Below, piece by piece: positions 11,976-54,129 of a stretch of DNA of 64,000 nucleotides. The stretch is from a virus (lineage: Duplodnaviria; Heunggongvirae; Uroviricota; Caudoviricetes): the IMG/VR virus record IMGVR_UViG_3300029288_004479; one strand, 5' to 3'. The notes under the pieces were generated by a model. That model had not been told where the DNA came from. It saw only the letters and a list, made by a program, of their open reading frames with translations, and did no database searches. Positions within the stretch are counted from its first letter, which is position 1, and every line of letters begins with the position of its first letter. The position numbers were made by a program, and so were the translations under genes.

Positions 11976-12064
11976 GCGCACGTAGGAAAGCGGATTATTC
12001 CACCGGACTTCTATCGTAAAAGGAAGATATCCGGATATCGTGGGTTCAAATCCCATCGTGCGCG
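11976..12064 (+). tRNA. tRNA-Arg(UCU) with 15-nt canonical-position intron (12014-12028)
   Basis: Acceptor GCGCACG/CGTGCGC; T-arm GTGGGTTCAAATCCCAT; anticodon CUUCUA pairs with intron GAAG (BHB). Confidence 0.75.
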
Positions 12065-12301
12065 TGCGCCCGGAACGGAAGCATCGAACGCATCCTTAAC
12101 TAAGATGCGGGGTAAATACCAGATGTATGACCGGAACAGATTGGGGCTATCCTAATCGAGGGGTTTAAGTCCCCGATCTGTGGCGTAGGCACTTCGGTGC
12201 CATAATAATAGAAGAACAGTGCGCTCGTAGTCTAGCCCGGACAAGGCTCCAGATTCCTAATCTGTTTGTCATGGGTTCAAATCCCCTCGGGATCGTTTAT
12301 T

Positions 12302-17798: not shown

Positions 17799-17871
17799 GG
17801 GTTTGTAGCATAGTAACAAGTGCGTTCGCCTCCAAAGCGAAAAGGCGAGGGTGCAATTCCCTTCAAGCCCA
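17799..17871 (+). tRNA. tRNA-Trp(CCA) with atypical T-loop (UGCAAUU, G at position 55)
   Basis: Acceptor GGGTTTG/CAAGCCC; D-stem GCAT/GTGC; anticodon arm TTCGC-CTCCAAA-GCGAA. Confidence 0.65.
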
Positions 17872-18773: not shown

Positions 18774-19853
18774 CAGGTTTACTCTTCTCAGGTCTCTGCA
18801 TTAGCGGAGAAGTCCGGTAACGGCACAGAACTTATTTCATTGTATATCCCCGGAACGAAACGGGTCGATGATATCACTCAAAGATTACGGGACGAACATT
18901 GTTCATGTGGCAATATCAAAAGTAAACAGACCAGAACAAACGTCCAGAAAGCGTTATCAGCAATAATCGCACGGTTATCTGGAGGTATCAAAACCTTCCC
19001 GGAAAACGGTATAATAATCTATTGTGGGGAAGTCGCGTTAGATCGTGGCGATAAAACCGAGTTCGAATATTATACATTCACACCGCCGCAACCGGTAAAA
19101 TCGTTTAGTTACAAATGTGACGCCAAGTTCGATACGGGTGACGCGCTCGCGCTCGCATCTGAAAAAGATACATATGCATTAATTGTGTTGGATCTACAGG
19201 AAGCGTGTTGGGGGACGCTTGAAGGATCAGCAATTCATGTTATGGGAACTTATGATTCAATCGTGCCGAACAAGCACGGACAAGGGGGGCAATCACAACA
19301 CAGGTTTGAACAATTAAGGCAGATTGCAATCAATGAATATTTTATAAAACTCTCGGAACGTGTTAACACATCGTTCCTCCCCTTGCTTGAGAAAAGCGTT
19401 CTCAAAGGCATTCTAATCGGCGGGTGTGGTATGACGAAAGACGAGTTCGTGAAAAGCGAGCATATGCACCACGAGTTACGGAAGGTTATTATTGGCACGT
19501 TTGACACGTCATATACTAACGAATATGGGTTAACAGAACTGGTCGAAGCATCGAAGAACAACCTGAAAGATATCGGGTTACGCGATGAGAAGATAGCATT
19601 CGACGAGTTCCTGAAAGAGTTGGCACGCGAATCTGGGAAAGTTGCATATGGAGTATCGGAAGTTCTACACAAAGCCGAGATCGGGCAGGTCAAGCGGGTG
19701 TTATTATCAACGTCTCGTGTTAACTTATATGATCAGATTGAGGAGAAAAACACTACTAATTATCAATTAGTATTAATCTCAAAAGATTCCGATAGCGGGT
19801 CGATGCTCGACAAAGGGTTCGGTGGGATTGTGGCGGTGTTGAGGTATGGATAG
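18774..19853 (+). CDS. prf1: archaeal peptide chain release factor aRF1 (domains 1-3), with no canonical start codon downstream of the in-frame TGA
   Basis: GNGTELISLYIP, NIKS, YxCxxxF (YKCDAKF) and GGQ (HGQGGQSQHRF) motifs; the first ATG/GTG/TTG in frame is TTG at 18840, inside the conserved domain. Confidence 0.8.
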   Translation, partial: QVYSSQVSALAEKSGNGTELISLYIPGTKRVDDITQRLRDEHCSCGNIKSKQTRTNVQKALSAIIARLSGGIKTFPENGIIIYCGEVALDRGDKTEFEYYTFTPPQPVKSFSYKCDAKFDTGDALALASEKDTYALIVLDLQEACWGTLEGSAIHVMGTYDSIVPNKHGQGGQSQHRFEQLRQIAINEYFIKLSERVNTSFLPLLEKSVLKGILIGGCGMTKDEFVKSEHMHHELRKVIIGTFDTSYTNEYGLTELVEASKNNLKDIGLRDEKIAFDEFLKELARESGKVAYGVSEVLHKAEIGQVKRVLLSTSRVNLYDQIEEKNTTNYQLVLISKDSDSGSMLDKGFGGIVAVLRYG

Positions 19854-23863: not shown

Positions 23864-24898
23864 GTGAAAGCCAAGTGTCCTACGGATATATTTGGTTCGC
23901 CGTTAACTTCAGACAATGTTACAACTTATTATAAAAGTATAGTTAAAATAACGCATCCTGACCATTATAACGGCAACAGGAAATTAGTGTATGTCGCAGA
24001 GGAAGCTACTAAAATATTAAATTCTTATTACAAAGAAGCAAAAGATACTATCGAAGGAAAAACACCTCCGTCTAACACGTCCTTTAAAAATGTCGTGTAT
24101 GACACATACTTTAAAACAGGAGATTGCGAGTATTGGCTGTCAAACAAATTTATCGACGATAATTTCTGTAGAGTTTATATGGGAGAAAGAAAATCACCGA
24201 CAGGCAATGAAGATATTTGCCTGAAAATATCGAAAGATCCTGAAGATAACTACTTACTGATCAACGAATCGGAGATCCTGAAAAAAATCTCACATAAGTC
24301 AATGCCAATATTGGTGGATACTTTTGTGACTAATGATGGGAATGAGGCTAATGTTATAAGAAAAGTCAATGAAAGTTATGACCTGATCAAGATAAAAGAA
24401 ATGTATCCTGATGGCGTATCACAAGAACACGTTGTATGGATGATGGATCGTCTGTTGAGCGTTATGGGGTATTTGCACATTAACAACGTAATTCATGGGG
24501 GGATAGAACCGGGCAATATCCTTATAACTCCATATAACCATAACGCAACACTTATCGATTATATATTTGCAATTGACGAGGCAAACAAACCCGGTATGAA
24601 ATATTCCGGCGTAAACGAGTTCAGTGCGCCGGAGATCAGCAAGGGCTCAAAACCACATCCGGCGACGGACATGTATTCATTGGGAAAAGTTATGGAATAT
24701 ATCATTACTGATAACAACGGAGAATTTAAGAATGATGTAGACAGTCGATTAAAAAATTTCATATCAGGGTTTACACAAAAAAACCCGTCGGAAAGAGCGA
24801 GTGATGCATGGGAATATTGGTATAAACTGAGATCTTTACGAGAAGAAATCTTCGGGGCAAGAAACCAGTTCTTACCATTTAATATAAAAAAGATTTAA
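23864..24898 (+). CDS. J-domain fused to a protein-kinase-like domain that is likely catalytically dead
   Basis: HPD tripeptide in KITHPDHYNG...AEEATKIL; kinase-like CLKIS, HGGIEPGNILI (HRD to HGG), SAPE, DMYSLG. Confidence 0.5.
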   Translation: MKAKCPTDIFGSPLTSDNVTTYYKSIVKITHPDHYNGNRKLVYVAEEATKILNSYYKEAKDTIEGKTPPSNTSFKNVVYDTYFKTGDCEYWLSNKFIDDNFCRVYMGERKSPTGNEDICLKISKDPEDNYLLINESEILKKISHKSMPILVDTFVTNDGNEANVIRKVNESYDLIKIKEMYPDGVSQEHVVWMMDRLLSVMGYLHINNVIHGGIEPGNILITPYNHNATLIDYIFAIDEANKPGMKYSGVNEFSAPEISKGSKPHPATDMYSLGKVMEYIITDNNGEFKNDVDSRLKNFISGFTQKNPSERASDAWEYWYKLRSLREEIFGARNQFLPFNIKKI

Positions 24899-24913
24899 AG
24901 GAGTAGTATTATT

Positions 24914-25891
24914 ATGGGTGGCGGAAGCTATGACAGGGATGTAGGATCTTCATCCTCATCAGGAACGTTTTCAAGTGGCGGAACATCGAGTTCATCAGCA
25001 CGAGCAGCAATGGGAAGCAGGGATCAACCCAAGAGTACAAAAGTACAAAACCGAAGGGTTGAATCTAAATCAGAAAGTCCTATTGTTATCAATCTGGATG
25101 TAACCGGGTCAAACATAGAGTTTGCAAGGATAGTGTATGATAAATCACCGATGCTTTTCGGTCAGATCGAGCAGCAGGGGTATTTAAAGAATTTTGATAT
25201 CTGCTTTTCGGCGACGGGAGATGCAAATTCCGACAGTTGCCCGATTCAGGTATGTGATTTCAATACCGGTATAAAGTTAGACGACGAGCTTAAAAAGATA
25301 TATTTAGAAGGTGGTGGCGGGGGTCAGCTAAAAGAAACGTATGAACTCTCGGCGTATTACTTTGCACATTACTGTGACATGGTTAATGCAAAGACACCCT
25401 TTATGTTCTTTATCGTAGACGAAGCGCCATATAAAACTGTGCAGAAAGAGTTCATAGAGCAATATATGGGAGATTCGGTCGGAGAAGATATTGATTCAAA
25501 ACAGGTCTTCAGAGATCTCTTTAAGAAATTTCATGGCAACGTATTCATCTTCCAGAACAAGTATCTGGGATCGAGAAGCAGCGAGACAGAAGAGATCCGG
25601 GATGAATGGAGAGAGGTTCTTGGAAATACCTATAAGGATCATCTGATTCCGATAGAGGAAGAAAAGTCTATTGTTGACCTGATACTCGGAACAATAGCGA
25701 TGGTTTCCGGGTCGAGGAGTCTTACAACATACAAATCTGACATGGTATCAAGAGGACAGACAGACACCAGAATAGCGAAAGTTGAGAAATCCCTCCAAAC
25801 AATCTCAAAATCCATTGTTCCGAGAGTAAACGTTGATTTACCTACCGATACGGGTTCAGGAACGAAAAAACATACTGCGAGAAAGTTATAA
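24914..25891 (+). CDS. vWA-like domain protein with G/S-rich N-terminus
   Basis: INLDVTGSN MIDAS-like motif (DxTGS). Confidence 0.45.
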   Translation: MGGGSYDRDVGSSSSSGTFSSGGTSSSSARAAMGSRDQPKSTKVQNRRVESKSESPIVINLDVTGSNIEFARIVYDKSPMLFGQIEQQGYLKNFDICFSATGDANSDSCPIQVCDFNTGIKLDDELKKIYLEGGGGGQLKETYELSAYYFAHYCDMVNAKTPFMFFIVDEAPYKTVQKEFIEQYMGDSVGEDIDSKQVFRDLFKKFHGNVFIFQNKYLGSRSSETEEIRDEWREVLGNTYKDHLIPIEEEKSIVDLILGTIAMVSGSRSLTTYKSDMVSRGQTDTRIAKVEKSLQTISKSIVPRVNVDLPTDTGSGTKKHTARKL

Positions 25892-26778
25892 TGTTAGTTG
25901 CCACACTACCCTCATTACATAACCGTGAACTCATTGAGGAAATCTTTTCAAACCCTTTTGTGGGTGGTGTCAGGTATAACATCGGAGTAAGATCGAAATA
26001 TTCCCCAGAAGACACACTTCATCATCTTAATACATATACAGATAGATACGACAAACCCGTATGGATCGATCTTAAAGGAAGACAACTTCGTATAACAAAA
26101 TGGGCAGATCCTACCTATGGCGATATAGAACTTAACAGGAACATCTCAACAAGTCTCCCTGCAAAAGTCTATTTCAGAGGAGATGAAAATTGCTATACGC
26201 TCGATGATTATATGGATAACAAATTGTTTATTTACCCCGATCCACGTTATGCACTTGGAGCTGGGCAAGCTCTTAATATTATAAGTAACAATTGTAAAAT
26301 TATCGGAGATTACCTCACTCAGAAAGATATTGATTATATCAAAGCATCGGATAATGCCGGTATTCACGATTATATGTTATCTTTCGTTGAAACACAGTCT
26401 GATATTAAGGAAGTTCTGGCAGTTGATCCGAAAGCGAAACCGATACTGAAAATTGAGTCCATTAGTGGATTAGAGTTTGTAGAAAAAGAATATGGTGGGG
26501 AATACCAACTTATTGCTGCAAGGGATGACTTATCAATAAACTTAGAGAAAGATAACGTCAAAATGCAAAATGCTCTTACGCTCATCTTAAATAAAGATAA
26601 AAACGCGATAGTAGCCTCTAAAATATTTGAATCATTAAAGAGTGGTATTCCAGAAGATAAAACCGATATGTCCAACCTCATGAAAATGGGGTATAGAAAC
26701 TTTATGCTTGATGACACAATATCACAAAGATACTTCAAACAAGCAATACTGTTGTGGCAGCAATTGGTAGAACAATGA
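25891..26778 (+). CDS. pyruvate-kinase-like / HpcH-type TIM-barrel domain protein
   Basis: KILKIESISGLEFVEK...LIAARDDLSINL...ASKIFESL resembles PK KIENxEG / MVARGDLG / MLESM blocks. Confidence 0.45.
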   Translation: MLVATLPSLHNRELIEEIFSNPFVGGVRYNIGVRSKYSPEDTLHHLNTYTDRYDKPVWIDLKGRQLRITKWADPTYGDIELNRNISTSLPAKVYFRGDENCYTLDDYMDNKLFIYPDPRYALGAGQALNIISNNCKIIGDYLTQKDIDYIKASDNAGIHDYMLSFVETQSDIKEVLAVDPKAKPILKIESISGLEFVEKEYGGEYQLIAARDDLSINLEKDNVKMQNALTLILNKDKNAIVASKIFESLKSGIPEDKTDMSNLMKMGYRNFMLDDTISQRYFKQAILLWQQLVEQ

Positions 26779-27347
26779 AATCACCGTATGTTATTGGAAT
26801 ATGTGGCAGGACGTGTAGTGGCAAATCAACGGTTGTTGCCGAATTAGAGCGATCATTACCGAACGTATTGCATATTAAACAGGACAAGTTCTTCAAATTA
26901 CCTCATGACAAATCAATAAATTGGGAATCTCCCGATGCATTACGTAATGATCAACTGATCTATACGATTAAAAGGCTAAAAAACAATATGTCGGCACATA
27001 TCCCATCTCACGCATGGACGGAAAACTTTGATCGGGAAGTGTACCCGAAGGATTACATACTTATCGAAGGGTATCTGTTATTTGCAGTTGATGAGTTATA
27101 TCCTTTATTTGACAAAAGGATATGGATAGACGTATCGGATGAGATATTAATCAGCCGTAGGTTGAACCGCGCGTCAAATGGACGACTTGACGATATTGGA
27201 TATGTAAAAAATGTGGTTATACCATGTTCAAAACAATACGAATCCATTCAGAAATCACGCGCTCACATTATCATAGATGGGAACCGCGATAAGAACGAGG
27301 TTATAGAAGAATTTAAACGGTCGGTTCTTGGCGGTATTAAGGTATGA
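26775..27347 (+). CDS. uridine/cytidine kinase-like P-loop nucleoside kinase
   Basis: IGICGRTCSGKST P-loop; IKQDKFFK; ILIEGYLLF; RIWIDVSDEILISRRLNR. Confidence 0.65.
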   Translation: MKSPYVIGICGRTCSGKSTVVAELERSLPNVLHIKQDKFFKLPHDKSINWESPDALRNDQLIYTIKRLKNNMSAHIPSHAWTENFDREVYPKDYILIEGYLLFAVDELYPLFDKRIWIDVSDEILISRRLNRASNGRLDDIGYVKNVVIPCSKQYESIQKSRAHIIIDGNRDKNEVIEEFKRSVLGGIKV

Positions 27348-28657
27348 AATCGTATATAGTTGCAGGGATGGGATTCGGCGATGAAGGGAAAGGCAGTATT
27401 GTAGACTTCCTTGCAGACAAATATAATATTAAAAATACTGTCAGGTATAATGGAGGGAATCAGGCAGCACATCACGTTGTAAGAAATGGTATACTGCATT
27501 GTTTCAGCCAATGGGGATCATCTACACTATTACCTGATACCAAGACGATTATTAGTAACTATACGTTAATTGAACCATTTGCATTAGAAAACGAAGCAAA
27601 TACCTTGAAGAGTAAAGGGATATCAGATGTATATGAACGGGTGGTTATCGATGATCGGTGTTTGGTAGTAACGCCGATGCACAAACTGATCAATCAGATG
27701 AAAGAGATTACCAGTCGTAATAGCAGTTGTGGATGCGGAGTTGGGGAAACAGTATCGGATTCCAACAGGTTTAGTAAATATGCCTTACGTTCCGGCGATA
27801 TTATGGATGTAAATACATCATCAAAAAAACTTGATTTCATATGGAGGGTTAAAGTTGATCAGGCCGAACAGATAGTTGAAGACAATCCTGAAAACGCGAG
27901 TATAAAAGAAAGATATGATATTATTAAACATCTCGATACGATCAAACTGGCAGAAGAATATCTTGAAATCGCGAATAATCTTTCTATCGGGTCAGTCGAT
28001 AAGTTCTTATCAGAACCCTCTATATATGAAGGAGCACAGGGGGTATTACTCGATGTCAATCACGGATTCCACCCACACGTTACAAAAACAACAACGACGT
28101 TCGAGAATGCTGAGACCCTTTGTAAAACCCCCTATGAAAAAGTGGGTGTGATAAGACCGTATATTACAAGACATGGAAACGGGATATTACCTACAGAAGA
28201 TAAAATGCTTGAAAAAGCAATCCCGGATATCCACAATACATATAATGAGTGGCAAGGCAAGTTCAGGATAGGGTGGCAAGATCTTATACTAATGAAATAT
28301 GCAGTTAACCTAGCAAAACCAGATTATATCGCAATGACTAATATAGATAAAATCGCTGGTATGAATAAGATTAAGATTGGGATATCATACGAATATTACG
28401 GGAATGCAAATGTAGACCGATACTTTGAATGTAAAAGGAATGGTCATACCTGCATTTTACAAACTCTTAAAAAAGAGAGCGTGAGTGGTCAGTGTCAGGA
28501 ACTTAACAGTATCTTTAACGAGAGTACTCCCGTTTATAAGACATTCGATAATTACAAAGATTACTTTACGTTTCTCGAATCAGATGAAGGTATAAACACA
28601 CCGATCAATATCCTATCTTTTGGTATAGAAGCGGCAGATAAATATCTAATCAACTAA
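27344..28657 (+). CDS. purA: adenylosuccinate synthetase
   Basis: GFGDEGKGSIVD and GGNQAAHHV N-terminal motifs; ~437 aa. Confidence 0.8.
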   Translation: MKSYIVAGMGFGDEGKGSIVDFLADKYNIKNTVRYNGGNQAAHHVVRNGILHCFSQWGSSTLLPDTKTIISNYTLIEPFALENEANTLKSKGISDVYERVVIDDRCLVVTPMHKLINQMKEITSRNSSCGCGVGETVSDSNRFSKYALRSGDIMDVNTSSKKLDFIWRVKVDQAEQIVEDNPENASIKERYDIIKHLDTIKLAEEYLEIANNLSIGSVDKFLSEPSIYEGAQGVLLDVNHGFHPHVTKTTTTFENAETLCKTPYEKVGVIRPYITRHGNGILPTEDKMLEKAIPDIHNTYNEWQGKFRIGWQDLILMKYAVNLAKPDYIAMTNIDKIAGMNKIKIGISYEYYGNANVDRYFECKRNGHTCILQTLKKESVSGQCQELNSIFNESTPVYKTFDNYKDYFTFLESDEGINTPINILSFGIEAADKYLIN

Positions 28658-29265: not shown

Positions 29266-29364
29266 GCTCCCGTAGTGTAGTGGCAATCATGTGAGACCTT
29301 CAAGAAAACAAGTGGTTAATTTCGAGGAAATCTCACGATATGGGTTCGAATCCCGTCGGGAGCA
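29266..29364 (+). tRNA. tRNA-Glu(UUC) with 27-nt canonical intron (29303-29329); C at position 33
   Basis: Textbook hBHBh' motif (TGAGA/TCTCA, CCTT/GAGG, AAA bulge); mature anticodon loop CCUUCAA. Confidence 0.7.
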
Positions 29365-29367
29365 TAT

Positions 29368-29438
29368 GCATCCTTGATCCAGAGGCAAGATACCAGCTTG
29401 ACATGCTGGAAACACAGGTTCGATCCCTGTAGGATGCA
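29368..29438 (+). tRNA. tRNA-Val(GAC)
   Basis: Acceptor GCATCCT/AGGATGC; anticodon loop TTGACAT; T-loop TTCGATC. Confidence 0.8.
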
Positions 29439-29441
29439 TGG

Positions 29442-29512
29442 GCACTCTTGATCTATAGGTATGATTTCTGGTCGCCAGCCAGAGAGAACGGGTTCGAATC
29501 CCGTAGAGTGCA
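29442..29512 (+). tRNA. tRNA-Gly(GCC); C at position 33
   Basis: Acceptor GCACTCT/AGAGTGC; anticodon arm TCTGG-TCGCCAG-CCAGA; T-arm ACGGGTTCGAATCCCGT. Confidence 0.7.
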
Positions 29513-29536
29513 TCCCCAAAAAGAGGGAAAACAAAT

Positions 29537-29782
29537 ATGACCGTAGATGAAACGTTAGATCGATTAGAACGAATAGGCACGCGGAAATCGTTTGTATATC
29601 ACGAAGATGTCTTGAAATTCGTCGATAGTGAACGAAATAAAGATCCAGAGATGCCGTATGGTAAGAAGCGGATGTTAGAGGATATCGAAACAGACGTTAT
29701 AACTCATATGGGTAATGGTAGAAAAACTATCCGGAACGAAGAGTTACGGGGTATAATTATACGCCAAAGAAGTTATCAATAA
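29537..29782 (+). CDS. hypothetical protein embedded in tRNA array
   Basis: 81 aa ORF; GAGGG SD upstream. Confidence 0.4.
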   Translation: MTVDETLDRLERIGTRKSFVYHEDVLKFVDSERNKDPEMPYGKKRMLEDIETDVITHMGNGRKTIRNEELRGIIIRQRSYQ

Positions 29783-29853
29783 GCTTCCGGAGTCTGTCGG
29801 AATGATGCATCGTTCTCGGCGATGCGGAATGGGTTCAATTCCCATCGGAAGTA
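29783..29853 (+). tRNA. tRNA-Glu(CUC)
   Basis: Anticodon arm CATCG-TTCTCGG-CGATG; T-arm ATGGGTTCAATTCCCAT. Confidence 0.75.
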
Positions 29854-29855
29854 TT

Positions 29856-29928
29856 GGGACAGTAGATCAGTTGGGAGATCGCTACACCGAAGATGTAGTC
29901 GTCACCGGTTCGAATCCGGTCTGTCCCG
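29856..29928 (+). tRNA. tRNA-Phe(GAA); C at position 33
   Basis: Acceptor GGGACAG/CTGTCCC; D-stem GATC/GATC; anticodon arm CTACA-CCGAAGA-TGTAG. Confidence 0.8.
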
Positions 29929-30108
29929 TCTCCTGTGGGAGAAATCTGCCATCAGTGGCGTGGCGTGGGCCTTAGGTTACATCAACCGAACGATCTAAAC
30001 GCTGGTACAGGTGAAATGGACGATCATTCAAGGCCAGTTACGGTCATCGAAATCCACGGGGTGCGACTCGTTCTAACACCTCAAAGAAACCCACCACAGG
30101 AGTTAATT

Positions 30109-30180
30109 GCGCTCGTAGCAGAGTGGTAATGCGGCAGGCTCTTAACCTGAAGATCGTGCGTTCGATCCGCACCGGGCGCA
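30109..30180 (+). tRNA. tRNA-Lys(CUU)
   Basis: Acceptor GCGCTCG/CGGGCGC; anticodon loop CTCTTAA; T-arm GTGCGTTCGATCCGCAC. Confidence 0.75.
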
Positions 30181-30252
30181 TTCCCCAAAAAAGGAGTATA
30201 AAATGTAAAAACCAGAGGATATAAATGTAAAGGCAACCAACAAGGATATGTT

Positions 30253-30323
30253 GCGACGATGATCTAACGGTATGATCCTACCCTTCCAAGGTAGAGGCCC
30301 GGGTTCAATTCCCGGTCGTCGCA
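30253..30323 (+). tRNA. tRNA-Gly(UCC)
   Basis: Acceptor GCGACGA/TCGTCGC; anticodon arm CTACC-CTTCCAA-GGTAG. Confidence 0.8.
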
Positions 30324-30397
30324 TGTCCCGTAGCACAGTCCGGTAGTGCGGCGTTCTTATAAGGCGTATGTCATGGGTTCGATCCCCATCGGGACAA
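30324..30397 (+). tRNA. tRNA-Ile(UAU); anticodon stem has three G-U pairs
   Basis: Acceptor TGTCCCG/CGGGACA; D-stem GCAC/GTGC; anticodon loop CTTATAA. Confidence 0.6.
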
Positions 30398-30400
30398 CTA

Positions 30401-30475
30401 GGGCGAGTAGCATAGTCCGGCTAATGCGTCAGTCTGATAAGCTGAAGACCGCAGATTCAAATTCTGCCTCGCCCA
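30401..30475 (+). tRNA. tRNA-Ile(GAU)
   Basis: Acceptor GGGCGAG/CTCGCCC; anticodon arm TCAGT-CTGATAA-GCTGA. Confidence 0.8.
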
Positions 30476-30599
30476 TTTCATTGAGTTTTTTCAAAACGAA
30501 ACAAAATTAGACCATTTTGTTGACGCTAACAAAATGGTAATACAATACAACCATCGAGTTAAAGAAATCTATTTATATCCTTATCCCGTATAACTACTT

Positions 30600-31076
30600 A
30601 TGAAAATGTCATATATAATAATTTTAAGTTGTATTCTATTGGCTGGATTAGCAGTAATGCCGGTATCAGCATTTACAGCGAATACACTTGATTTTAAAAT
30701 CGATGAAAAAGGTGATGCACAGGTTGTGATGACCTATTCTCTGAATGCAATTGAGAGTGGTGCAATAGTTGCAAAAGGTGTAGGGTCAGTGGGTGTAGTT
30801 CAGGCACTTGTGGACGAATCGTTACCATATTCGGCAAAGGTAAAAACGGTCGAGTTGGGTAAGGCAACAATGACGATTCCGGGTTTTGCAACGGGGAATG
30901 CGGGTATAAAGACCACAAAAGAATTCTCAATGCAACCAGCGCAGGACAAAGCAAGTAAATATTGGTTTGAGTTCGGCAGTAACTTCGCTCCAAAAGAGAC
31001 TACAATAACGTTTGAAAATGGTAAAGTATATACGTATAAAAATCAAATGCGTATCCCAACAACTTCAAACACATAA
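30600..31076 (+). CDS. secreted protein with signal peptide
   Basis: N-terminal hydrophobic segment followed by AVMPVSAF. Confidence 0.45.
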   Translation: MKMSYIIILSCILLAGLAVMPVSAFTANTLDFKIDEKGDAQVVMTYSLNAIESGAIVAKGVGSVGVVQALVDESLPYSAKVKTVELGKATMTIPGFATGNAGIKTTKEFSMQPAQDKASKYWFEFGSNFAPKETTITFENGKVYTYKNQMRIPTTSNT

Positions 31077-31081
31077 TTTTC

Positions 31082-31155
31082 CCGTCAGTGTCAGAGCGGC
31101 TAACGAGACCGGCTGTAGACCGGTTAAATCGCAGGTTCAAATCCTGCCTGACGGA
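31082..31155 (+). tRNA. tRNA-Tyr(GUA); D-arm weakly paired
   Basis: Acceptor CCGTCAG/CTGACGG; anticodon arm ACCGG-CTGTAGA-CCGGT; T-arm GCAGGTTCAAATCCTGC. Confidence 0.65.
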
Positions 31156-33829: not shown

Positions 33830-34900
33830 GTGGTGGATAAAATGTCGAAACAGAACCGCGATGTAGTAAGAGACGCGGTGTTTAAACGAGATAAGGAGAA
33901 ATGCGTGGTTCCCTACTGTAAGTGCAAACCGGACGACGCCCACCACCTCATTGAACGCAAACTATGGGATGAGAATACCGAGAACGGTGGATATATTCTG
34001 GAAAATCTGGTATCCGTATGTGAACGGCACCACAAACTCTGCGAGAACAATACGATCCTCCCGCGCACGTTACGTGCATATGCAGGAATAAACGAAGTCC
34101 TCCTACCAAAATCATTTGATAAAACAAAAGAATACGATAAGTGGGGTCGGGTGCTTGAACCACCAGCAAGAGAGCGAATGAAATACCCGCATACGCCGTA
34201 TTTACCATTCAGTCCAAGTGCAGATGAAAAGGATGTAAGGGAAAGCGGATATATGGATATACGGTGCCTGCTGAACAAACCGTTGCACATCTCAATAAAG
34301 ATGGATGGTAGCAATATATTGCTGACAAGAAATAATATCGCAGCTCGGAACGGATATGATGCGACTGGCAAGAGTTTCGATATGGCGAAACAAACCCATT
34401 CGATGTTTAAACACCTTATCCCGGAAGATGAGATGTGGTTTGGGGAATGGCTGTATGCAAAACACAGTATCCATTATATTGAGAATCTCAAACTAACGAA
34501 CTATCTGCAACTGTTCGGGATATACAATAAGAAAACACACATGTGGGCCGGTATTACTGATATACATGATCGGGTTAGCGAAGTAATAATCGAAACCGAT
34601 ATTACGCCGCCGCTTGCAGTGGGAGTGAATATCCCGGAAAAAGCACCAAGCATATCAGATATCCTTAACGGCAAAAGTGTTTACACGAACGAGAAAGACC
34701 TGAAAAACGAGTTAATTAAAATTGGGAATAGTGCGGTTAAGGGTGGGCACGAAGGTATAATTGTCAGGAACATGTATCCCTTCCATCACTCTCGATGGAA
34801 TGAGAACATAGCGAAGTTTGTCCGGGCGAATCATATCCAGACGAACAAACATTGGAGTCGTGGGCCGATCACTCGGAACGAAATAATGGAGAATGTATAA
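33830..34900 (+). CDS. HNH endonuclease domain fused to ATP-dependent RNA ligase (Rnl2-type nucleotidyltransferase)
   Basis: HNH: CVVPYC..C...HH......N..SVCERHH; ligase motif I KMDGSN, III FGEWL, IV HEGIIVRN, V IAKFVRANH. Confidence 0.65.
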   Translation: MVDKMSKQNRDVVRDAVFKRDKEKCVVPYCKCKPDDAHHLIERKLWDENTENGGYILENLVSVCERHHKLCENNTILPRTLRAYAGINEVLLPKSFDKTKEYDKWGRVLEPPARERMKYPHTPYLPFSPSADEKDVRESGYMDIRCLLNKPLHISIKMDGSNILLTRNNIAARNGYDATGKSFDMAKQTHSMFKHLIPEDEMWFGEWLYAKHSIHYIENLKLTNYLQLFGIYNKKTHMWAGITDIHDRVSEVIIETDITPPLAVGVNIPEKAPSISDILNGKSVYTNEKDLKNELIKIGNSAVKGGHEGIIVRNMYPFHHSRWNENIAKFVRANHIQTNKHWSRGPITRNEIMENV

Positions 34901-35940
34901 TGAATTATCACGAAGTTAAAAAATGTAGCGATCACCAAGATTATAATTTAACAACAGGGGATCTTTCAGATGTGTTGGGTGATATCCTTTATGGGTATCA
35001 TTATGATTCAAATAAACAAAAAGCAAACATCTATGAATTTGACTTGTTTTTTACATGTCCTTTCGACGATGAGTATGTAAAAAAATATGGAGATCACAAC
35101 GGATTCTCTAAAGATAATCAAAAACAGTTTGAAGAGTATGGGATATTAACAGAAGAGACAACAAAAGACAAGATCCAGAAAATCCCCTTACAATACGACG
35201 ATCATACACCGGCAGTATATTGCGACTGTGATCATAATGGGGAATTTGATCGAGTAGTTCCTACTTTCAAAGAAGCTTGCACTAATAATATATATGGGGA
35301 TATAAGAAAAAGAACGTTTTTCGAACGATTAATTAAACGCAACAACCCCTATCAGATCAAAGGAGTTATAGAAAGATCAATGTTATATCGGATGAGATTA
35401 AAGTTACCATTTGATGTAATTGCAGAACATATCACTGTAGATAAGATCCAATATGCCCAAAACGGAACAGAGAAATATATTCCAATGTACACATCAACAA
35501 GAAATACATGTAATAAAGTAGAAGATCTCAAAAAGAACCTTAATCGTATGCAAAGTATAATGTCTGAAATTGAGCAGAACATAGCTGACATTCAGGCAGA
35601 ACCTGAAAAATATATGCGACCGCACGAATACACCGCAACAAATACACGATTTGATCCATTTTGGAAAAAATGTCACGATACAGATGAAGAGGATAGAAAT
35701 ACCAAATATAATCTAAAAAACGGCGATCATTTATTAAAGAAATGTAAGTCAGAGTTCAAGAAAATGGAAGATGTAATGTTCCGTGCTGCATGGTACGATG
35801 TAGAACAAGATCCAATAGATCCAACGGATACAAAATGTTCACATAACAAATGCAATCGAGAACGCGCAAAAGGTAGTGAATATTGTGATAAATGTGTTCA
35901 GTTGCCAACAAAGGAATGCAATTTCTGTAAGTGTGAATAG
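34900..35940 (+). CDS. hypothetical protein with C-terminal Cys cluster
   Basis: TAATG overlap with upstream stop; C-terminal CSHNKCN...CDKC...CNFCKC. Confidence 0.45.
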   Translation: MNYHEVKKCSDHQDYNLTTGDLSDVLGDILYGYHYDSNKQKANIYEFDLFFTCPFDDEYVKKYGDHNGFSKDNQKQFEEYGILTEETTKDKIQKIPLQYDDHTPAVYCDCDHNGEFDRVVPTFKEACTNNIYGDIRKRTFFERLIKRNNPYQIKGVIERSMLYRMRLKLPFDVIAEHITVDKIQYAQNGTEKYIPMYTSTRNTCNKVEDLKKNLNRMQSIMSEIEQNIADIQAEPEKYMRPHEYTATNTRFDPFWKKCHDTDEEDRNTKYNLKNGDHLLKKCKSEFKKMEDVMFRAAWYDVEQDPIDPTDTKCSHNKCNRERAKGSEYCDKCVQLPTKECNFCKCE

Positions 35941-38913: not shown

Positions 38914-39331
38914 AAGTTTACATTACTAATGTATAAAGTTATTTATTTGACGGTTAAATTACAACAATTAAAAACTGGAGAAGAATCACATGACAACGTA
39001 TCTTCAATGTAAAAAATGTGGGTATAAATTTGCAGTCTCAACAACGGCGTATTTAGCCGGGGTTGTTAACTGTCCACGATGTGGTGTGCCACATGCAGAC
39101 AAGTATTCGAATGAGAGTAATAATAGAAATATCCACTAAAACAAGGATTGAAACACCCTCATCTTGATTTCTAATTCCCCCGAATCCGGAGGAATTAAAA
39201 AAAAGAAAGAATAAGGATTAGATTCTGTTAAGTTCATATTAATATCATACAAACAAATAAAACAGAAATCAGATCATCATTATAAAGAAAAAACATATAT
39301 AGAATGATGCAAGATTATATTCAGGTGAAAT

Positions 39332-41433: not shown

Positions 41434-41717
41434 TTGTAATCCCCGACTTTCCCGCAGGACATACAATTGCATTACATACAATTGCATTAATCTTCTTAAT
41501 ATTCGTAGTAGCAATGTTATTGGTTTGTACGGTGTTAGTTTTGTATCATAGATCATCAGAAATGTATCTCCTTATTGCAATTTATTGGATAATTATAATA
41601 TCTTGTGTTCTCCTGTTGTTATCTTTCCCGTGTACAGATTACCAAATGATCTCTTGGGGAGATCCAGACTCAATAACGAGTAATTATTGTCAACAACTTA
41701 TCGCGACAGGTTGGTAA
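41430..41717 (+). CDS. membrane protein
   Basis: ATGA overlap; two TM segments. Confidence 0.4.
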   Translation: MIVIPDFPAGHTIALHTIALIFLIFVVAMLLVCTVLVLYHRSSEMYLLIAIYWIIIISCVLLLLSFPCTDYQMISWGDPDSITSNYCQQLIATGW

Positions 41718-42055: not shown

Positions 42056-42129
42056 GCACCCGTAGCGAAGTTGGTTATCGCGTCGGTTTTACATGCCGAA
42101 GACCGTCGGTTCGAACCCGACTGGGTGCA
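42056..42129 (+). tRNA. tRNA-Val(UAC)
   Basis: Acceptor GCACCCG/TGGGTGC; D-stem GCGA/TCGC; anticodon arm TCGGT-TTTACAT-GCCGA. Confidence 0.8.
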
Positions 42130-42210
42130 TCAGAGGATAGATTCGGGGATAATGCTCCGTAAGGATAAGTCTTTATCATTCCGGCTATCCGCTGTAGAAA
42201 AACAACACGA

Positions 42211-42339
42211 GGGTTGGTATCTCAGTTGGTAGAGAGTCCGGCTGTTACAAGAGAGAATAAAAGATTGTGTGATTCATGATTTTGACCCCTCTCTCTTGCA
42301 GAAACCGGAATGTCAAGAGTTCGAGCCTCTTCCGACCCG
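42211..42339 (+). tRNA. tRNA-Asn(GUU) with 56-nt canonical intron (42248-42303)
   Basis: Perfect hBHBh' (CTGT/GCAG, TAC and AAA bulges, 7-bp h'); acceptor GGGTTGG/CCGACCC. Confidence 0.8.
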
Positions 42340-42360
42340 TATTTTTGATGAGGTAGGATC

Positions 42361-42564
42361 ATGAAAAAGGTAACATACGGAATCCAATATTGCAACAGCT
42401 TATGTCCCTATTTCTTCAGGAACTACGACGACGGAGATAATATCTGGTGTGCGAAGATCCGAAAGAAAATATATGATTACGACGGGGGAATGATCTTTGG
42501 TGATCGGGCGTATCGAGACATTCCGAAAGAATGCCCATTAGAAAACTGTCCGGAAAAACAATGA
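42361..42564 (+). CDS. hypothetical Cys-containing protein
   Basis: GGTAGG SD upstream. Confidence 0.4.
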   Translation: MKKVTYGIQYCNSLCPYFFRNYDDGDNIWCAKIRKKIYDYDGGMIFGDRAYRDIPKECPLENCPEKQ

Positions 42565-42634
42565 GATTATACGAACCTTCACTTATTTTGTGCAAAAATA
42601 TAAATCTGCAAACAGCAAATAACGTATAAAGAGT

Positions 42635-42719
42635 AACGGGGTGGGGTAGTCAGGATAACCCGCTAGACCCATAATCTAGAGACCTCACGGCTTGCGAAGG
42701 TTCGAATCCTTCCCCCGTT
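42635..42719 (+). tRNA. tRNA with CAU anticodon (Met or Ile2 type); C at position 33; 16-nt variable region (possible non-canonical intron)
   Basis: Acceptor AACGGGG/CCCCGTT; D-stem GGGT/ACCC; anticodon arm CTAGA-CCCATAA-TCTAG; T-arm GAAGGTTCGAATCCTTC. Confidence 0.6.
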
Positions 42720-42739
42720 ATATAAGTTTTGGAGTTGTA

Positions 42740-46388: not shown

Positions 46389-46589
46389 ATGGCAATCCTA
46401 GAGATTATCCTAATCGCATTAAAAATCATTATCCCCAACCTTATTGGCATCGGAATTTTTGCGATTGGATTTGTGTTAAACTTCAGGGAAGATCCAGATA
46501 GTAAAAGAAAAGGGTTATGGGTAATGGGTTTTGCGATAGTATGGGAGTTTATGATGATCTATTTATTTACACAGGCGTGGTTTTTATGA
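46389..46589 (+). CDS. small membrane protein; 3' end lies in a 32-bp tandem duplication
   Basis: Two TM helices; stop codon sits in the second repeat copy. Confidence 0.35.
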   Translation: MAILEIILIALKIIIPNLIGIGIFAIGFVLNFREDPDSKRKGLWVMGFAIVWEFMMIYLFTQAWFL

Positions 46590-46617
46590 TCTATTTATTT
46601 ACACAGGCGTGGTTTTT
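46554..46617 (+). repeat. 32-bp perfect tandem duplication (ATGATCTATTTATTTACACAGGCGTGGTTTTT, 2 copies)
   Basis: Direct reading of the sequence. Confidence 0.9.
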
Positions 46618-46631
46618 AGGGTGATCTGTAT

Positions 46632-52751: not shown

Positions 52752-54129
52752 ATGTGGAGACGATACGATTTGGCACGAGTTGCACTAGTAAACCCCGGTA
52801 AAAAAGAATGTTATGCAATGCAGGAACCACTTAACTTGGGTTTTATCGCATCATATTTAGAATCACTAGGGCATACAGTAACTATTATTGACGAACTTGC
52901 CGGGCAGAATGTTATACCCACACTCAAAACATTTGAACCCGATATTGTCGGACTTACCGCAGTAACGCCACTTGCTCCGGATGCATATAGGATCGCAGAC
53001 GCTTGTAAAAAACAAGGATATTTGACAGTAATGGGTGGCGTCCACGCATCAGTATTACCTCAAGAAGCTTTTGAACATGTAGATATTGTTGTGAAAGGTG
53101 AAGGCGAATATGCATTCGAAACTATTATTGACGAGAAACTTACTGATGGTAATATACTTAGTCAATACGTAGAAAATATAGATTCAATGCCATTACCTGC
53201 ACGACACCTTATGAATATGGAATACTATGTGCGCACAAAAGATCGCATACCCCATTCGGTTTATTATTTCATACCGCCAAATACCAGAATGGCCGGAATG
53301 GTTACATCGAGAGGTTGTCCCTATTCATGTATCTATTGCCACAACTCGTGGAAAGGATTACCTTGGATTACCTTACAGGATGAACGCCCCGGAACATGTC
53401 ATTACTGAAATGCGCCAACTTATTGACGTGTATAATATTGAAGCGATCTTTTTCAATGAAGATAACTTTTTCTTTGATAAGAATCGGGCGCGTGAGATCT
53501 GTTATAAAATTATAGATGAAGGGTTTGATATTATGTGGGGTGCTACAAGCACGACAAACGGTATTACCAAAGATGTTCTTGAGATTGCAAAAGAAGCTGG
53601 GTGCCGACAAGTAACGTTTGGGTTTGAATCCGGGTCGGATCGGATCTTAAAAATATTACGTAAACGTGCTACAGTCGCACAGAACTACGCTGCTGTAAAA
53701 CTCTGTAATGATGTTGGGATCATACCACAAGGGACTGTTATGATAGGCAACCCAACCGAGACAATTGATGATATCAGGAAAACACAAGAGTTTGTACGCA
53801 CCTCCGGACTCAACCATATTGGAGTATGTATTACCACGCCATATCCGGGAACCGAACTCTGGAATCAGGTTCGTGCACAAGGCAAAGTACCAGAAGAGAT
53901 TAACTGGTCAAATATTAATCTCGATAAAATTAATATCCGAGTATGTGATACGATCCCCCCCAAAACATTACAAAAACTATATCTTGAAACAAGTAGCATA
54001 CTCAGTCAAAACGAACAACTGTCTTTTGGAGATCTTATCTACGTATTAAAAAACGATCATAAAATGATCATTGATATTCTTAAAGATCCACAAAGAGTTA
54101 AACGTATAATTAAACGGTTGCGATTATGA
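52752..54129 (+). pseudogene. B12-binding radical SAM enzyme gene split by a 10-bp tandem duplication (GGATTACCTT x2 at 53355-53374)
   Basis: N-terminal B12-binding-like domain; CPYSCIYC; deleting one 10-bp unit fuses 52752..53408 with the 53227..54129 frame (..WKGLPYRMNAPEHVITEM..). Confidence 0.7.

What the first reader, a model, noticed from the sequence alone, without database searches (positions are those of the whole stretch)
29292..29898. Four tRNAs carry C instead of the near-universal U at position 33
By direct folding, the anticodon loops are CCUUCAA for Glu-UUC (29266-29364, after BHB-defined splicing), UCGCCAG for Gly-GCC (29442-29512), CCGAAGA for Phe-GAA (29856-29928) and CCCAUAA for the CAU tRNA (42635-42719). 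All four have C at position 33. The other eleven tRNAs have U33.

U33 forms the U-turn and is almost invariant. Anticodon-loop substitutions in phage tRNAs have been reported to confer resistance to host anticodon nucleases.
Basis: partly seen in the sequence, partly recalled or inferred. Interest (0 to 1): 0.6.

Follow-up and report, generated by a model that had tools for sequence, protein, structure and literature searches.

The report
Archaeal mobile-element tRNAs with C33
Four of the sixteen tRNA genes on this large archaeal virus- or plasmid-like element carry C instead of the near-universal U next to the anticodon; the same change recurs in related elements and in many bacterial viruses, so it looks like a trait of mobile-element tRNAs, but whether it is an adaptation is not shown.

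Summary
Covariance-model alignments and ARAGORN place C at position 33 in tRNA-Glu(UUC), tRNA-Gly(GCC), tRNA-Phe(GAA) and an initiator-like tRNA(CAU), at window positions 29298, 29473, 29888 and 42669. I count 16 tRNAs, not 15; the other twelve have U33.

The sequence is identical in assemblies from three sources, so this is not a sequencing error. No acceptable alternative register gives U33.

The window is a gene-dense, single-strand-coding archaeal extrachromosomal element (contig 217 kb, 39% GC). In related elements, 14 of 123 distinct tRNAs have C33, always C. It recurs in Gly-GCC, Glu-UUC and CAU tRNAs, and stems show compensatory changes. In cellular-looking archaeal contigs from the same scan, 1 of 67 tRNAs has C33.

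More than 120 IMG/VR viral contigs carry a CAU tRNA with the loop CCCAUAA, mostly initiator-like.

The nuclease-evasion reading is plausible but untested. A related route is loss of U33-dependent anticodon-loop modifications (Elp3, archaeal TrmJ, t6A enzymes).

Relaxed constraint is a serious rival, because other "invariant" positions also drift in these tRNAs. The host was not identified.

The parts
29266..29364 (+). tRNA-Glu(UUC) with a 27-nt intron (29303-29329) at 37/38. Mature loop CCUUCAA, C33 at 29298.
   Evidence: RF00005 49.9 bits. BHB read from the sequence, -8.3 kcal/mol. The orthologue in L043 has loop CUUUCAA.
29442..29512 (+). tRNA-Gly(GCC), loop UCGCCAG, C33 at 29473.
   Evidence: RF00005 51.1 bits and ARAGORN. 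C33 is shared with L043/L044 and L110. In four sequences, 11 stem pairs change on both sides and 96% of cells stay paired.
29856..29928 (+). tRNA-Phe(GAA), loop CCGAAGA, C33 at 29888. The discriminator is G73.
   Evidence: RF00005 60.2 bits and ARAGORN. The MFE fold is a cloverleaf, z = -2.6. The L043 counterpart has CUGAAGA.
42635..42720 (+). Initiator-like tRNA(CAU) with an A1-U72 pair, loop CCCAUAA, C33 at 42669. It has an 11-nt insertion (42683-42693) in the variable region.
   Evidence: RF00005 55.3 bits. Alignment with 7 relatives. The same C33 loop occurs in L108, L173, L174 and L147.
29266..31155 (+). Main tRNA cluster of 10 genes: Glu-UUC, Val-GAC, Gly-GCC, Glu-CUC, Phe-GAA, Lys-CUU, Gly-UCC, Ile-UAU, Ile-GAU, Tyr-GUA. 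Two small ORFs are interspersed.
   Evidence: The order matches L043 13081-14159.
42056..42720 (+). Second tRNA group: Val-UAC, Asn-GUU (57-nt intron) and the CAU tRNA.
11976..12295 (+). tRNA-Arg(UCU) with a 15-nt intron, and a degenerate tRNA-Arg(CCU). Both have U33.
17799..17871 (+). tRNA-Trp(CCA) with U33. It has no G18G19 and its T loop is UGCAAUU.
33830..34900 (+). RNA ligase (Rnl2-type family) with an HNH-like N-terminal part, 2.7 kb downstream of the main tRNA cluster. This is context only; a link to the C33 tRNAs is inferred.
   Evidence: PF09414, E = 5e-12. phrog_24030 'RNA ligase', E = 7e-68, plus weak HNH families.

Best explanation
Shown: the four C33 tRNAs are real, inherited and structurally intact genes of a large archaeal extrachromosomal element (virus-, plasmid- or Borg-like). 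C33 is a recurrent trait of tRNAs carried by this element family, and of tRNA arrays in bacterial viruses. It is rare in cells.

Inferred: U33-to-C is kept because it changes how host proteins that read U33 treat the tRNA, while the tRNA can still decode. C33 is tolerated in eukaryotic initiator tRNA and in Sulfolobales tRNA-Cys.

Two routes are possible and do not exclude each other.
(a) Direct escape from host anticodon-loop nucleases that recognise U33 or cut beside it.
(b) Escape from U33-dependent loop-modifying enzymes. This would leave the element's tRNAs without the modifications that some nucleases need, or would tune their decoding. The candidate enzymes are Elp3/Elongator at U34, which matters for Glu-UUC; archaeal TrmJ at C32, which matters for the three tRNAs with C32; and the t6A37 enzymes, which matter for the CAU tRNA.

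Either way the element would keep a private supply of Glu, Gly, Phe and initiator tRNAs when host tRNAs are attacked.
For: Real and functional-looking:
- RF00005 scores of 50-60 bits.
- Identical sequence in three independent assemblies.
- Four Gly-GCC orthologues keep 96% pairing with 11 double-sided compensatory pairs, and three of the four keep C33.

Element-specific:
- 14 of 123 distinct tRNAs in this family have C33 and none has a confirmed purine at 33. The single G33 call (L041 Ser-AGA) comes from an unverified ARAGORN intron-mode prediction. In cellular-looking loci from the same scan the figure is 1 of 67, Fisher p = 0.02.
- The GTDB scan gave no archaeal Phe with CCGAAGA.

Recurrent:
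- Gly-GCC has C33 in the window, L043/44 and L110.
- Glu-UUC has C33 in the window (arm GAGA..UCUC) and in L110/L102 (arm GAUC..GUUC), which are separate contexts.
- CAU has C33 in the window, L108 and L073.
- Single cases occur in Pro-CGG, Thr-UGU, Gly-UCC and Ala-UGC.
- Three of the window's four C33 are U33 in the syntenic L043 cluster.

Excess over other positions: position 33 deviates 13-14 times in 120 fitted tRNAs, against a mean of 4.7 at nine other invariant sites. Poisson p is about 4e-4 to 1e-3.

Beyond archaea:
- At least 120 IMG/VR contigs have a CAU tRNA with loop CCCAUAA; 70 of 80 checked were confirmed.
- Co-resident tRNAs in those loci have C33 in 24 of 181 cases.
- One array has 7 of 31.

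U33 is read by loop enzymes:
- U33C abolishes Elongator cm5U34 (PMC11096365).
- U33C abolishes Sulfolobus TrmJ Cm32 (PMC4105751).
- U33C abolishes t6A37 formation by TsaBCDE and yeast KEOPS (PMC8887486).

Conflict context: RNA ligases of three types occur in the family, and a published proposal covers phage tRNAs (PMC10264068).
Against: - No nuclease, host or modification state is known for this element.
- Gamma-toxin cuts a Glu-UUC stem-loop with C33 as well as with U33.
- Other invariant positions in these tRNAs also deviate at 1-8%.
- In the IMG/VR sample that was not conditioned on a C33 tRNA, position 33 (6 of 113) is no more deviant than positions 14 or 55.
- C33 at 11% is well below the roughly 39% expected for a freely drifting pyrimidine site in 39%-GC DNA, so U is still preferred overall.
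- One cellular archaeon has Glu-UUC with C33.
- No PIN, HEPN or deaminase gene was recognised in the window.
Confidence: 0.45

Rival explanations
1. Relaxed constraint. Tens of tRNAs carried by a mobile element merely supplement the host set, so purifying selection is weak. U33-to-C is the mildest change at a conserved site and gets fixed by drift. It has no function of its own.
For: - The same tRNA population deviates at U8 (5), A14 (5), G53 (5), U55 (9), C56, A58 and C61 (4 each), and lacks G18G19 in 5 of 120.
- The window has clearly degenerate genes: Arg-CCU at 35.6 bits with two acceptor mismatches, and Glu-CUC with G8/G14, which falls below the Rfam threshold.
- In the unconditioned IMG/VR sample, position 33 is not exceptional.
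- In window-versus-L043 orthologue pairs, position 33 changed 3 times, against 1, 2 and 4 times at positions 32, 37 and 38 (read).
- C33 is known to be tolerated (PMC5041475; PMC7668247).
Against: - Position 33 deviates about three times as often as the other invariant sites, and always to C.
- C33 persists in Gly-GCC through heavy compensated divergence.
- It recurs in the same isoacceptors and clusters in particular genomes: 7 of 31 in L116, 4 of 16 here, 0 of 12 in L053.
Confidence: 0.35
2. Host inheritance. The unknown host's own Glu, Gly, Phe or initiator tRNAs already have C33, and the element simply copied them.
For: A cellular archaeal contig (L082, 33% GC, with LplA, EPSP synthase, SdhA and HisRS) has Glu-UUC with loop CCUUCGA. 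Sulfolobales tRNA-Cys has C33 (PMC7668247).
Against: - About 56 other cellular-looking tRNA-Glu genes with the same 5' half have U33.
- No archaeal Phe with CCGAAGA was found among 185,579 species, although the pattern demanded a particular T arm and so had limited sensitivity.
- Three of the four window C33 are U33 in the syntenic relative L043.
- The anticodon arms of the C33 Glu tRNAs differ between lineages.
Confidence: 0.08
3. Dead or non-translational genes. The C33 copies would be pseudogenes, decoys or integration targets rather than working tRNAs.
For: Some neighbouring tRNAs are degenerate. Phe has G73 instead of the usual A73, and the CAU tRNA has an 11-nt insertion and lacks the three G-C pairs of initiators.
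Against: - All four score 50-60 bits with intact stems and T loops.
- The Glu gene keeps a precise splicing motif.
- Gly-GCC shows compensatory evolution.
- Glu-UUC reads GAA, which is 70% of Glu codons in the window's ORFs.
Confidence: 0.07
4. Editing. C33 would be deaminated to U33 after transcription, as CDAT8 does at position 8 in Methanopyrus (from my own knowledge), so the mature tRNAs would be ordinary.
For: None was found here. It is only a formal possibility.
Against: No deaminase or THUMP domain was found in any window ORF of 110 aa or more that was scanned. Only 64 kb of at least 217 kb was searched. No editing at position 33 is known to me.
Confidence: 0.03

Closest known systems
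Phage-encoded tRNAs with anticodon-loop substitutions proposed to resist host anticodon nucleases (van den Berg et al. 2023, PMC10264068). T4 tRNA repair by Pnkp and Rnl1 is a related counter-measure.
   Same: A tRNA array on a mobile element. The loops differ from the cellular type. RNA ligase genes occur in the same element family.
   Different: The setting is archaeal, with introns and A1-U72 initiator-like tRNAs. The changed base is the near-invariant U33, which that paper does not mention. No cognate nuclease or host is known.
Cytoplasmic initiator tRNA-Met of multicellular eukaryotes (loop CCCAUAA, C33)
   Same: The anticodon loop sequence and the A1-U72 pair match those of the window's CAU tRNA.
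   Different: The window tRNA has AGA/UCU instead of three G-C pairs at 29-31:39-41. It has an 11-nt variable-region insertion and sits on an archaeal mobile element.
Sulfolobales tRNA-Cys(GCA) with C33 (PMC7668247), and the cellular Glu-UUC with C33 found here in L082
   Same: These are archaeal elongator tRNAs that carry C33, which shows C33 is compatible with archaeal translation.
   Different: They are single, chromosomal, lineage-fixed cases. Here C33 is scattered over several isoacceptors of mobile elements.
Borg and other large extrachromosomal elements of Methanoperedens (PMC11208441, PMC12660748)
   Same: Coding is almost entirely on one strand. There are many orphan genes, 5-23 tRNAs, a T4 Rnl2-like RNA ligase next to a homing-endonuclease-like domain, and perfect tandem repeats.
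   Different: GC is 39% rather than 30-35%. Terminal repeats, marker proteins and a Methanoperedens host were not shown. The nearest cellular aRF1 is only 38-41% identical and spread over Halobacteriota.

Membership tests
tRNA (Rfam RF00005) | Cloverleaf scoring above the family gathering score (29 bits) | tested here: met
   Scores are 49.9 (Glu), 51.1 (Gly), 60.2 (Phe) and 55.3 (CAU) bits.
Archaeal intron-bearing tRNA | Bulge-helix-bulge motif: two 3-nt bulges separated by 4 bp, with cuts at 37/38 | tested here: met
   In the Glu-UUC gene the bulges are CAA and AAA and the central helix is CCUU/GAGG. The structure evaluates at -8.3 kcal/mol, within 1 kcal/mol of the MFE. The motif definition comes from my own knowledge of Marck and Grosjean's work.
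Nuclease-resistant mobile-element tRNA | Encoded by a virus or other mobile element | tested here: met
   About 95% of ORFs of 150 aa or more are on one strand. Most have no Pfam match. The window has IS200/605 copies, a DNA methylase and a short, divergent aRF1. Relatives sit on 57-220 kb contigs. A cellular origin is not formally excluded.
Nuclease-resistant mobile-element tRNA | The loop differs from the host's own isoacceptor at the nuclease recognition or cleavage site | tested here: inconclusive
   The loops differ from cellular-looking archaeal tRNA-Glu, and no archaeal Phe with this loop turned up in the GTDB scan. The actual host is unknown, and Gly-GCC and CAU were not compared with any host.
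Nuclease-resistant mobile-element tRNA | The host has a nuclease that cuts the U33 form and spares the variant | not testable with these tools
   This needs host identification and cleavage assays. The only relevant published test (gamma-toxin on a Glu stem-loop) shows no effect of C33.
Archaeal initiator tRNA | A1-U72 pair | tested here: met
   The acceptor stem reads AACGGGG...CCCCGUU-A. Relatives have the same pair.
Archaeal initiator tRNA | Three consecutive G-C pairs at 29-31:39-41 | tested here: not met
   The stem is CUAGA/UCUAG. I therefore call the tRNA 'initiator-like' only.
Borg elements | GC of 30-35%, about 10 points below the host | tested here: not met
   GC is 37-42% across the window. 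The criterion comes from the papers read.
Borg elements | Near-perfect single-strand coding and perfect tandem repeats | tested here: met
   37 of 39 ORFs of 150 aa or more are on the + strand. There are two perfect tandem repeats.
Borg elements | Linear genome with long inverted terminal repeats, Borg marker proteins, and a Methanoperedens host | not tested
   Only 64 kb of the contig is available, and no Borg reference sequences are held by the tools.

The most novel reading that the evidence does not exclude
C33 is a general 'stealth' mark of tRNAs carried by viruses and other mobile elements in both Archaea and Bacteria. By replacing the one base that host anticodon-loop enzymes use to recognise a tRNA (Elp3, TrmJ, the t6A enzymes and some anticodon nucleases), the element makes tRNAs, initiator tRNAs above all, that the ribosome still accepts but host defence and modification systems do not.
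Probability: 0.3. Interest if true: 0.75.

Novelty: new variant of a known kind. Interest (0 to 1): 0.55.

Why it matters
U33 is described as the invariant base of the anticodon loop. It makes the U-turn and, according to recent work, triggers Elongator and is required by archaeal TrmJ and by the bacterial and yeast t6A enzymes.

If mobile elements in two domains systematically replace it, three things follow. It would show what the base is really needed for in decoding. It would add a simple, searchable marker for tRNAs involved in virus-host conflict. It would also extend the tRNA arms race, so far documented in bacteria, to archaeal elements, where no anticodon nuclease has been tied to virus defence.

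I found no paper in the searchable library that reports C33 in viral tRNAs.

If the change is only drift, the result still matters in a smaller way. It would put a number on how far 'invariant' positions relax in mobile-element tRNAs.

Tried and rejected
- BLAST of the tRNA region against 50,697 phage records, near and distant modes: no match.
- IMG/VR scan with the Gly-GCC 5' half: no hit, so the family is not in IMG/VR under that sequence.
- Relatives found through the neighbouring adenylosuccinate synthetase (59% identity and below) did not keep the tRNA cluster next to it. The aRF1 gene proved the useful anchor.
- Host identification failed. aRF1 points only to Halobacteriota at 38-41% identity. 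An identical TnpB is listed from NCBI, but without accession or organism.
- A search for an element-encoded editing enzyme or tRNA nuclease in the window found none. This covered Pfam, PHROGs and NCBIfam on about 65 ORFs.
- The ORF beside the RNA ligase (34852-35940) has no Pfam, PHROG, NCBIfam or PDB sequence match. Its single-sequence AlphaFold model was unusable (pLDDT 34), so a T4-like healing-and-sealing pair could not be shown.
- The RNA ligase itself has no PDB sequence match.
- The ARAGORN intron-mode call of the Glu gene as Arg-UCG with U33 was rejected, for the reasons given in the observation check.
- A BHB intron explanation for the 11-nt insertion in the CAU tRNA was checked by hand at three cut positions. 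None gave a 4-bp central helix.
- Filing the element as a Borg was rejected as unproven, because its GC is too high.
Full report
**What is in the window.**
ARAGORN finds 14 tRNA genes. Rfam's tRNA model finds 15, including two intron-bearing genes that ARAGORN's default mode misses. The union is 16, all on the + strand: 11976-12295 (two), 17799-17871 (one), 29266-31155 (ten) and 42056-42720 (three).

The window has 37-42% GC. Thirty-seven of its 39 ORFs of 150 aa or more are on the + strand. Most have no family match. Those that do include:
- AglB, a short aRF1, a Ser/Thr kinase, a uridine-kinase-like protein and adenylosuccinate synthetase;
- an SPFH protein, an RNA ligase, DUF1848 and a DNA methylase;
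- radical-SAM fragments, glycosyltransferases and two IS200/605 TnpB copies.

The sequence belongs to a 216,809-bp JGI contig and was assembled independently from ENA and Logan data.

This is the profile of a large archaeal extrachromosomal element or virus. It resembles Borg-type elements in architecture and in carrying a T4 Rnl2-like ligase, but its GC is too high for the published Borg criterion. I do not file it as a Borg.

The covariance-model alignments give these stems and loops:

| tRNA | anticodon stem | loop |
|---|---|---|
| Glu | UGAGA/UCUCA | CCU...[intron]...A |
| Gly | UCUGG/CCAGA | UCGCCAG |
| Phe | CUACA/UGUAG | CCGAAGA |
| CAU | CUAGA/UCUAG | CCCAUAA |

The C33 bases are at 29298, 29473, 29888 and 42669.

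For the Glu gene, the anticodon depends on where the intron is cut. The sequence forms a textbook helix-bulge-helix-bulge-helix motif: 3-nt bulges CAA and AAA, a 4-bp helix CCUU/GAGG and an outer helix GAAA/UUUC. This places the 27-nt intron (29303-29329) at the canonical 37/38 site. The structure evaluates at -8.3 kcal/mol, within 1 kcal/mol of the unconstrained optimum.

ARAGORN's intron mode offers Arg-UCG with U33 instead. I reject it for the reasons given in the observation check: it needs a shifted, mismatched stem and an intron inside the anticodon, and it contradicts the intron-less L043 orthologue.

The other twelve tRNAs have U33.

The tRNA region is identical in all three assemblies, so C33 is not an error.

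**Relatives.**
The aRF1 gene has a clade of short homologues, 50-86% identical, on contigs of up to 220 kb. Cellular aRF1 proteins are only 38-41% identical and come from Halobacteriota. Fetching DNA around those homologues gave related elements rich in tRNAs.

L043/L044 (aRF1 56% identical) carry the same cluster order as the window: Glu-UUC, Val-GAC, Gly-GCC, Glu-CUC, Phe-GAA, Lys-CUU ... Ile-GAU, Tyr-GUA. There:
- Glu-UUC, Phe and the initiator-like CAU tRNA have U33;
- Gly-GCC has C33 (UCGCCAU);
- Pro-CGG has C33, and in L044 Thr-UGU has it too.

Other relatives:
- L108 (aRF1 64% identical) has the initiator-like CAU tRNA with CCCAUAA.
- L110, a 57-kb contig from the same JGI sample as the window, has C33 in Gly-GCC (UCGCCAG), Glu-UUC (CCUUCAA) and Ala-UGC. 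The covariance model confirms these.
- L041/42 have C33 in Gly-UCC.

A metagenome scan with the 5' half of the tRNA-Glu gene returned 63 loci:
- About 57 look cellular, with a single tRNA-Glu and 45-71% GC. All but L082 have U33; L082 is described in the next bullet.
- L082 is a 33%-GC contig with housekeeping genes, and its Glu-UUC has the loop CCUUCGA.
- Four loci hold tRNA clusters. Of these, L102 has Glu-UUC with C33, L073 has a CAU tRNA with C33, and L053/L106 have none.

**Counts.**
Over these elements, 14 of 123 distinct tRNAs have C33 (counting the window's Glu). None has a confirmed purine at 33; the single G33 call (L041 Ser-AGA) rests on an unverified ARAGORN intron-mode prediction. 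In the cellular-looking loci the figure is 1 of 67, Fisher p = 0.02.

Four Gly-GCC genes keep 96% of stem cells paired with 11 double-sided compensatory pairs, and three of the four retain C33. These are maintained tRNAs, not decaying copies.

The C33 Glu-UUC genes have two unrelated anticodon arms: GAGA..UCUC in the window and GAUC..GUUC in L110/L102. The change therefore arose, or was kept, more than once.

**Beyond archaea.**
- A scan of IMG/VR for the Phe loop found a 265-kb viral contig (L017) whose Phe and one CAU tRNA both have C33.
- The same pattern over 185,579 species genomes found only two true tRNA-Phe genes with C33. Both lie on short contigs that hold tRNA arrays with three or four C33 tRNAs each. 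None is archaeal. The pattern required a specific T arm, so the negative result is not exhaustive.
Seventy of the 80 delivered were confirmed, and most have the body of a bacterial initiator tRNA.
- The tRNAs sharing those loci have C33 in 24 of 181 cases. One array has 7 of 31.

**How it might work.**
Papers read here state that U33 is found in nearly all tRNAs. The exceptions they name are eukaryotic initiators, tRNA-Pro(GGG), Candida tRNA-Ser (G33) and Sulfolobales tRNA-Cys.

They also show that U33 is a recognition element:
- U33C abolishes Elongator-dependent cm5U34 formation in vitro and in yeast.
- U33C abolishes Cm32 formation by Sulfolobus TrmJ.
- U33C abolishes t6A37 formation by the bacterial and yeast enzymes.

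This gives two concrete routes for an adaptive reading: direct loss of recognition by anticodon-loop nucleases, or loss of host modifications that such nucleases need. The family's RNA ligases fit a history of tRNA damage: Rnl2-type in the window, Rnl1-type in L109 and RtcB in L004. Glu-UUC reads GAA, which is 70% of the window's Glu codons.

All of this is inference. No nuclease, host or modification state is known. The one tested nuclease acting on a Glu-UUC loop is indifferent to C33.

**The main rival.**
A simple fit of 120 element tRNAs shows deviations at every "invariant" site:

| site | deviations in 120 tRNAs |
|---|---|
| U8 | 5 |
| A14 | 5 |
| G53 | 5 |
| U54 | 1 |
| U55 | 9 |
| C56, A58, C61 | 4 each |
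| no G18G19 | 5 |
| U33 | 13-14 |

Position 33 is about three times the average of the others (Poisson p about 1e-3), and the change is always to C. But the tRNA population is plainly under loosened constraint.

In 269 IMG/VR tRNAs, non-U33 is 10.4% against 1.5-6.7% at the other sites. In the subset not conditioned on a C33 neighbour it is 6 of 113 and unremarkable.

C33 at 11% is also far below what a freely drifting pyrimidine site would reach in this base composition. Drift of a mild change therefore cannot be excluded. I put the adaptive reading at 0.45 and drift at 0.35.

**Verdict.**
Its interpretation is reasonable but unproven. The more interesting result is that C33 is not peculiar to this window. 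It is a recurring feature of tRNAs on archaeal elements and bacterial viruses, and I found no paper in the searchable library that reports it.

Noticed in passing
window 39118-39154 (+): A single CRISPR-repeat-like sequence (RF01320 CRISPR-DR7, 45.8 bits, ending ...AUUGAAAC) lies just after a small zinc-ribbon ORF. No second repeat or array is nearby. It could be a solitary repeat of the kind viruses use against CRISPR, or a clue to the host's CRISPR type.
   Followed up: partly
window 17799-17871; L110 3368-3441, 3698-3774, 3997-4071; L111 3863-3940: Five tRNAs in this family have a T loop UGCAA(U/C)U, with G at position 55, and all five also lack G18G19 in the D loop. The two changes go together and suggest an altered D-loop/T-loop contact.
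   Followed up: partly
window 42683-42693: The initiator-like CAU tRNA has an 11-nt insertion in the variable region that seven relatives lack. It folds as a short extra arm and does not fit a BHB intron. A long variable arm on a Met-type tRNA is unusual.
   Followed up: partly
window 29928: The tRNA-Phe has G at the discriminator position 73, where its counterparts in L043, L110 and L102 have A.
   Followed up: no
window 29783-29853 and 12221-12295: tRNA-Glu(CUC) has G8 and G14 and is found only by ARAGORN, not by Rfam at its threshold. tRNA-Arg(CCU) has two acceptor-stem mismatches and scores only 35.6 bits. Both look partly degenerate.
   Followed up: no
window 30324-30397: There is a tRNA-Ile with anticodon UAU. 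Most archaea read AUA with a modified CAU tRNA (my own knowledge). AUA is 33% of Ile codons in the window's ORFs.
   Followed up: no
window 18840-19853: The element's aRF1 is short (337 aa against about 415 in cells). It belongs to a clade of 280-365-aa homologues found only on similar large contigs. tRNA genes flank it in relatives.
   Followed up: partly
window 23864-28657; L004, L005, L006: A conserved gene string is shared with distant relatives: Ser/Thr kinase, unknown protein (phrog_2971), pyruvate-kinase-barrel-like protein, uridine-kinase-like protein, adenylosuccinate synthetase. It looks like a nucleotide-metabolism module.
   Followed up: no
window 52752-54129: A B12-binding radical-SAM enzyme appears split over two overlapping ORFs in different frames. 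This may be a frameshift or programmed feature.
   Followed up: no
window 33830-34900: The RNA ligase has an N-terminal stretch with weak matches to HNH endonucleases. This recalls the ligase plus homing-endonuclease neighbourhood reported for Borgs.
   Followed up: no
Most have the body of a bacterial initiator tRNA, and many are the only tRNA in the locus.
   Followed up: partly
L082 1001-1073: A cellular-looking archaeal contig (33% GC, 168.7 kb, with housekeeping genes) has tRNA-Glu(UUC) with C33. This is a second kind of cellular archaeal tRNA with C33, besides Sulfolobales tRNA-Cys.
   Followed up: partly
L029 and L036 (GTDB contigs): Two short contigs binned into bacterial genomes hold tRNA arrays with three or four C33 tRNAs each: Ser, Phe, Ala and Cys in one; Phe, Ile-UAU and Met in the other. 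They may be phage DNA binned with a host.
   Followed up: no
window 41459-41489 and 46554-46618: There are two perfect tandem repeats (15 nt x 2.1 and 32 nt x 2.0), a feature stressed for Borg elements.
   Followed up: no
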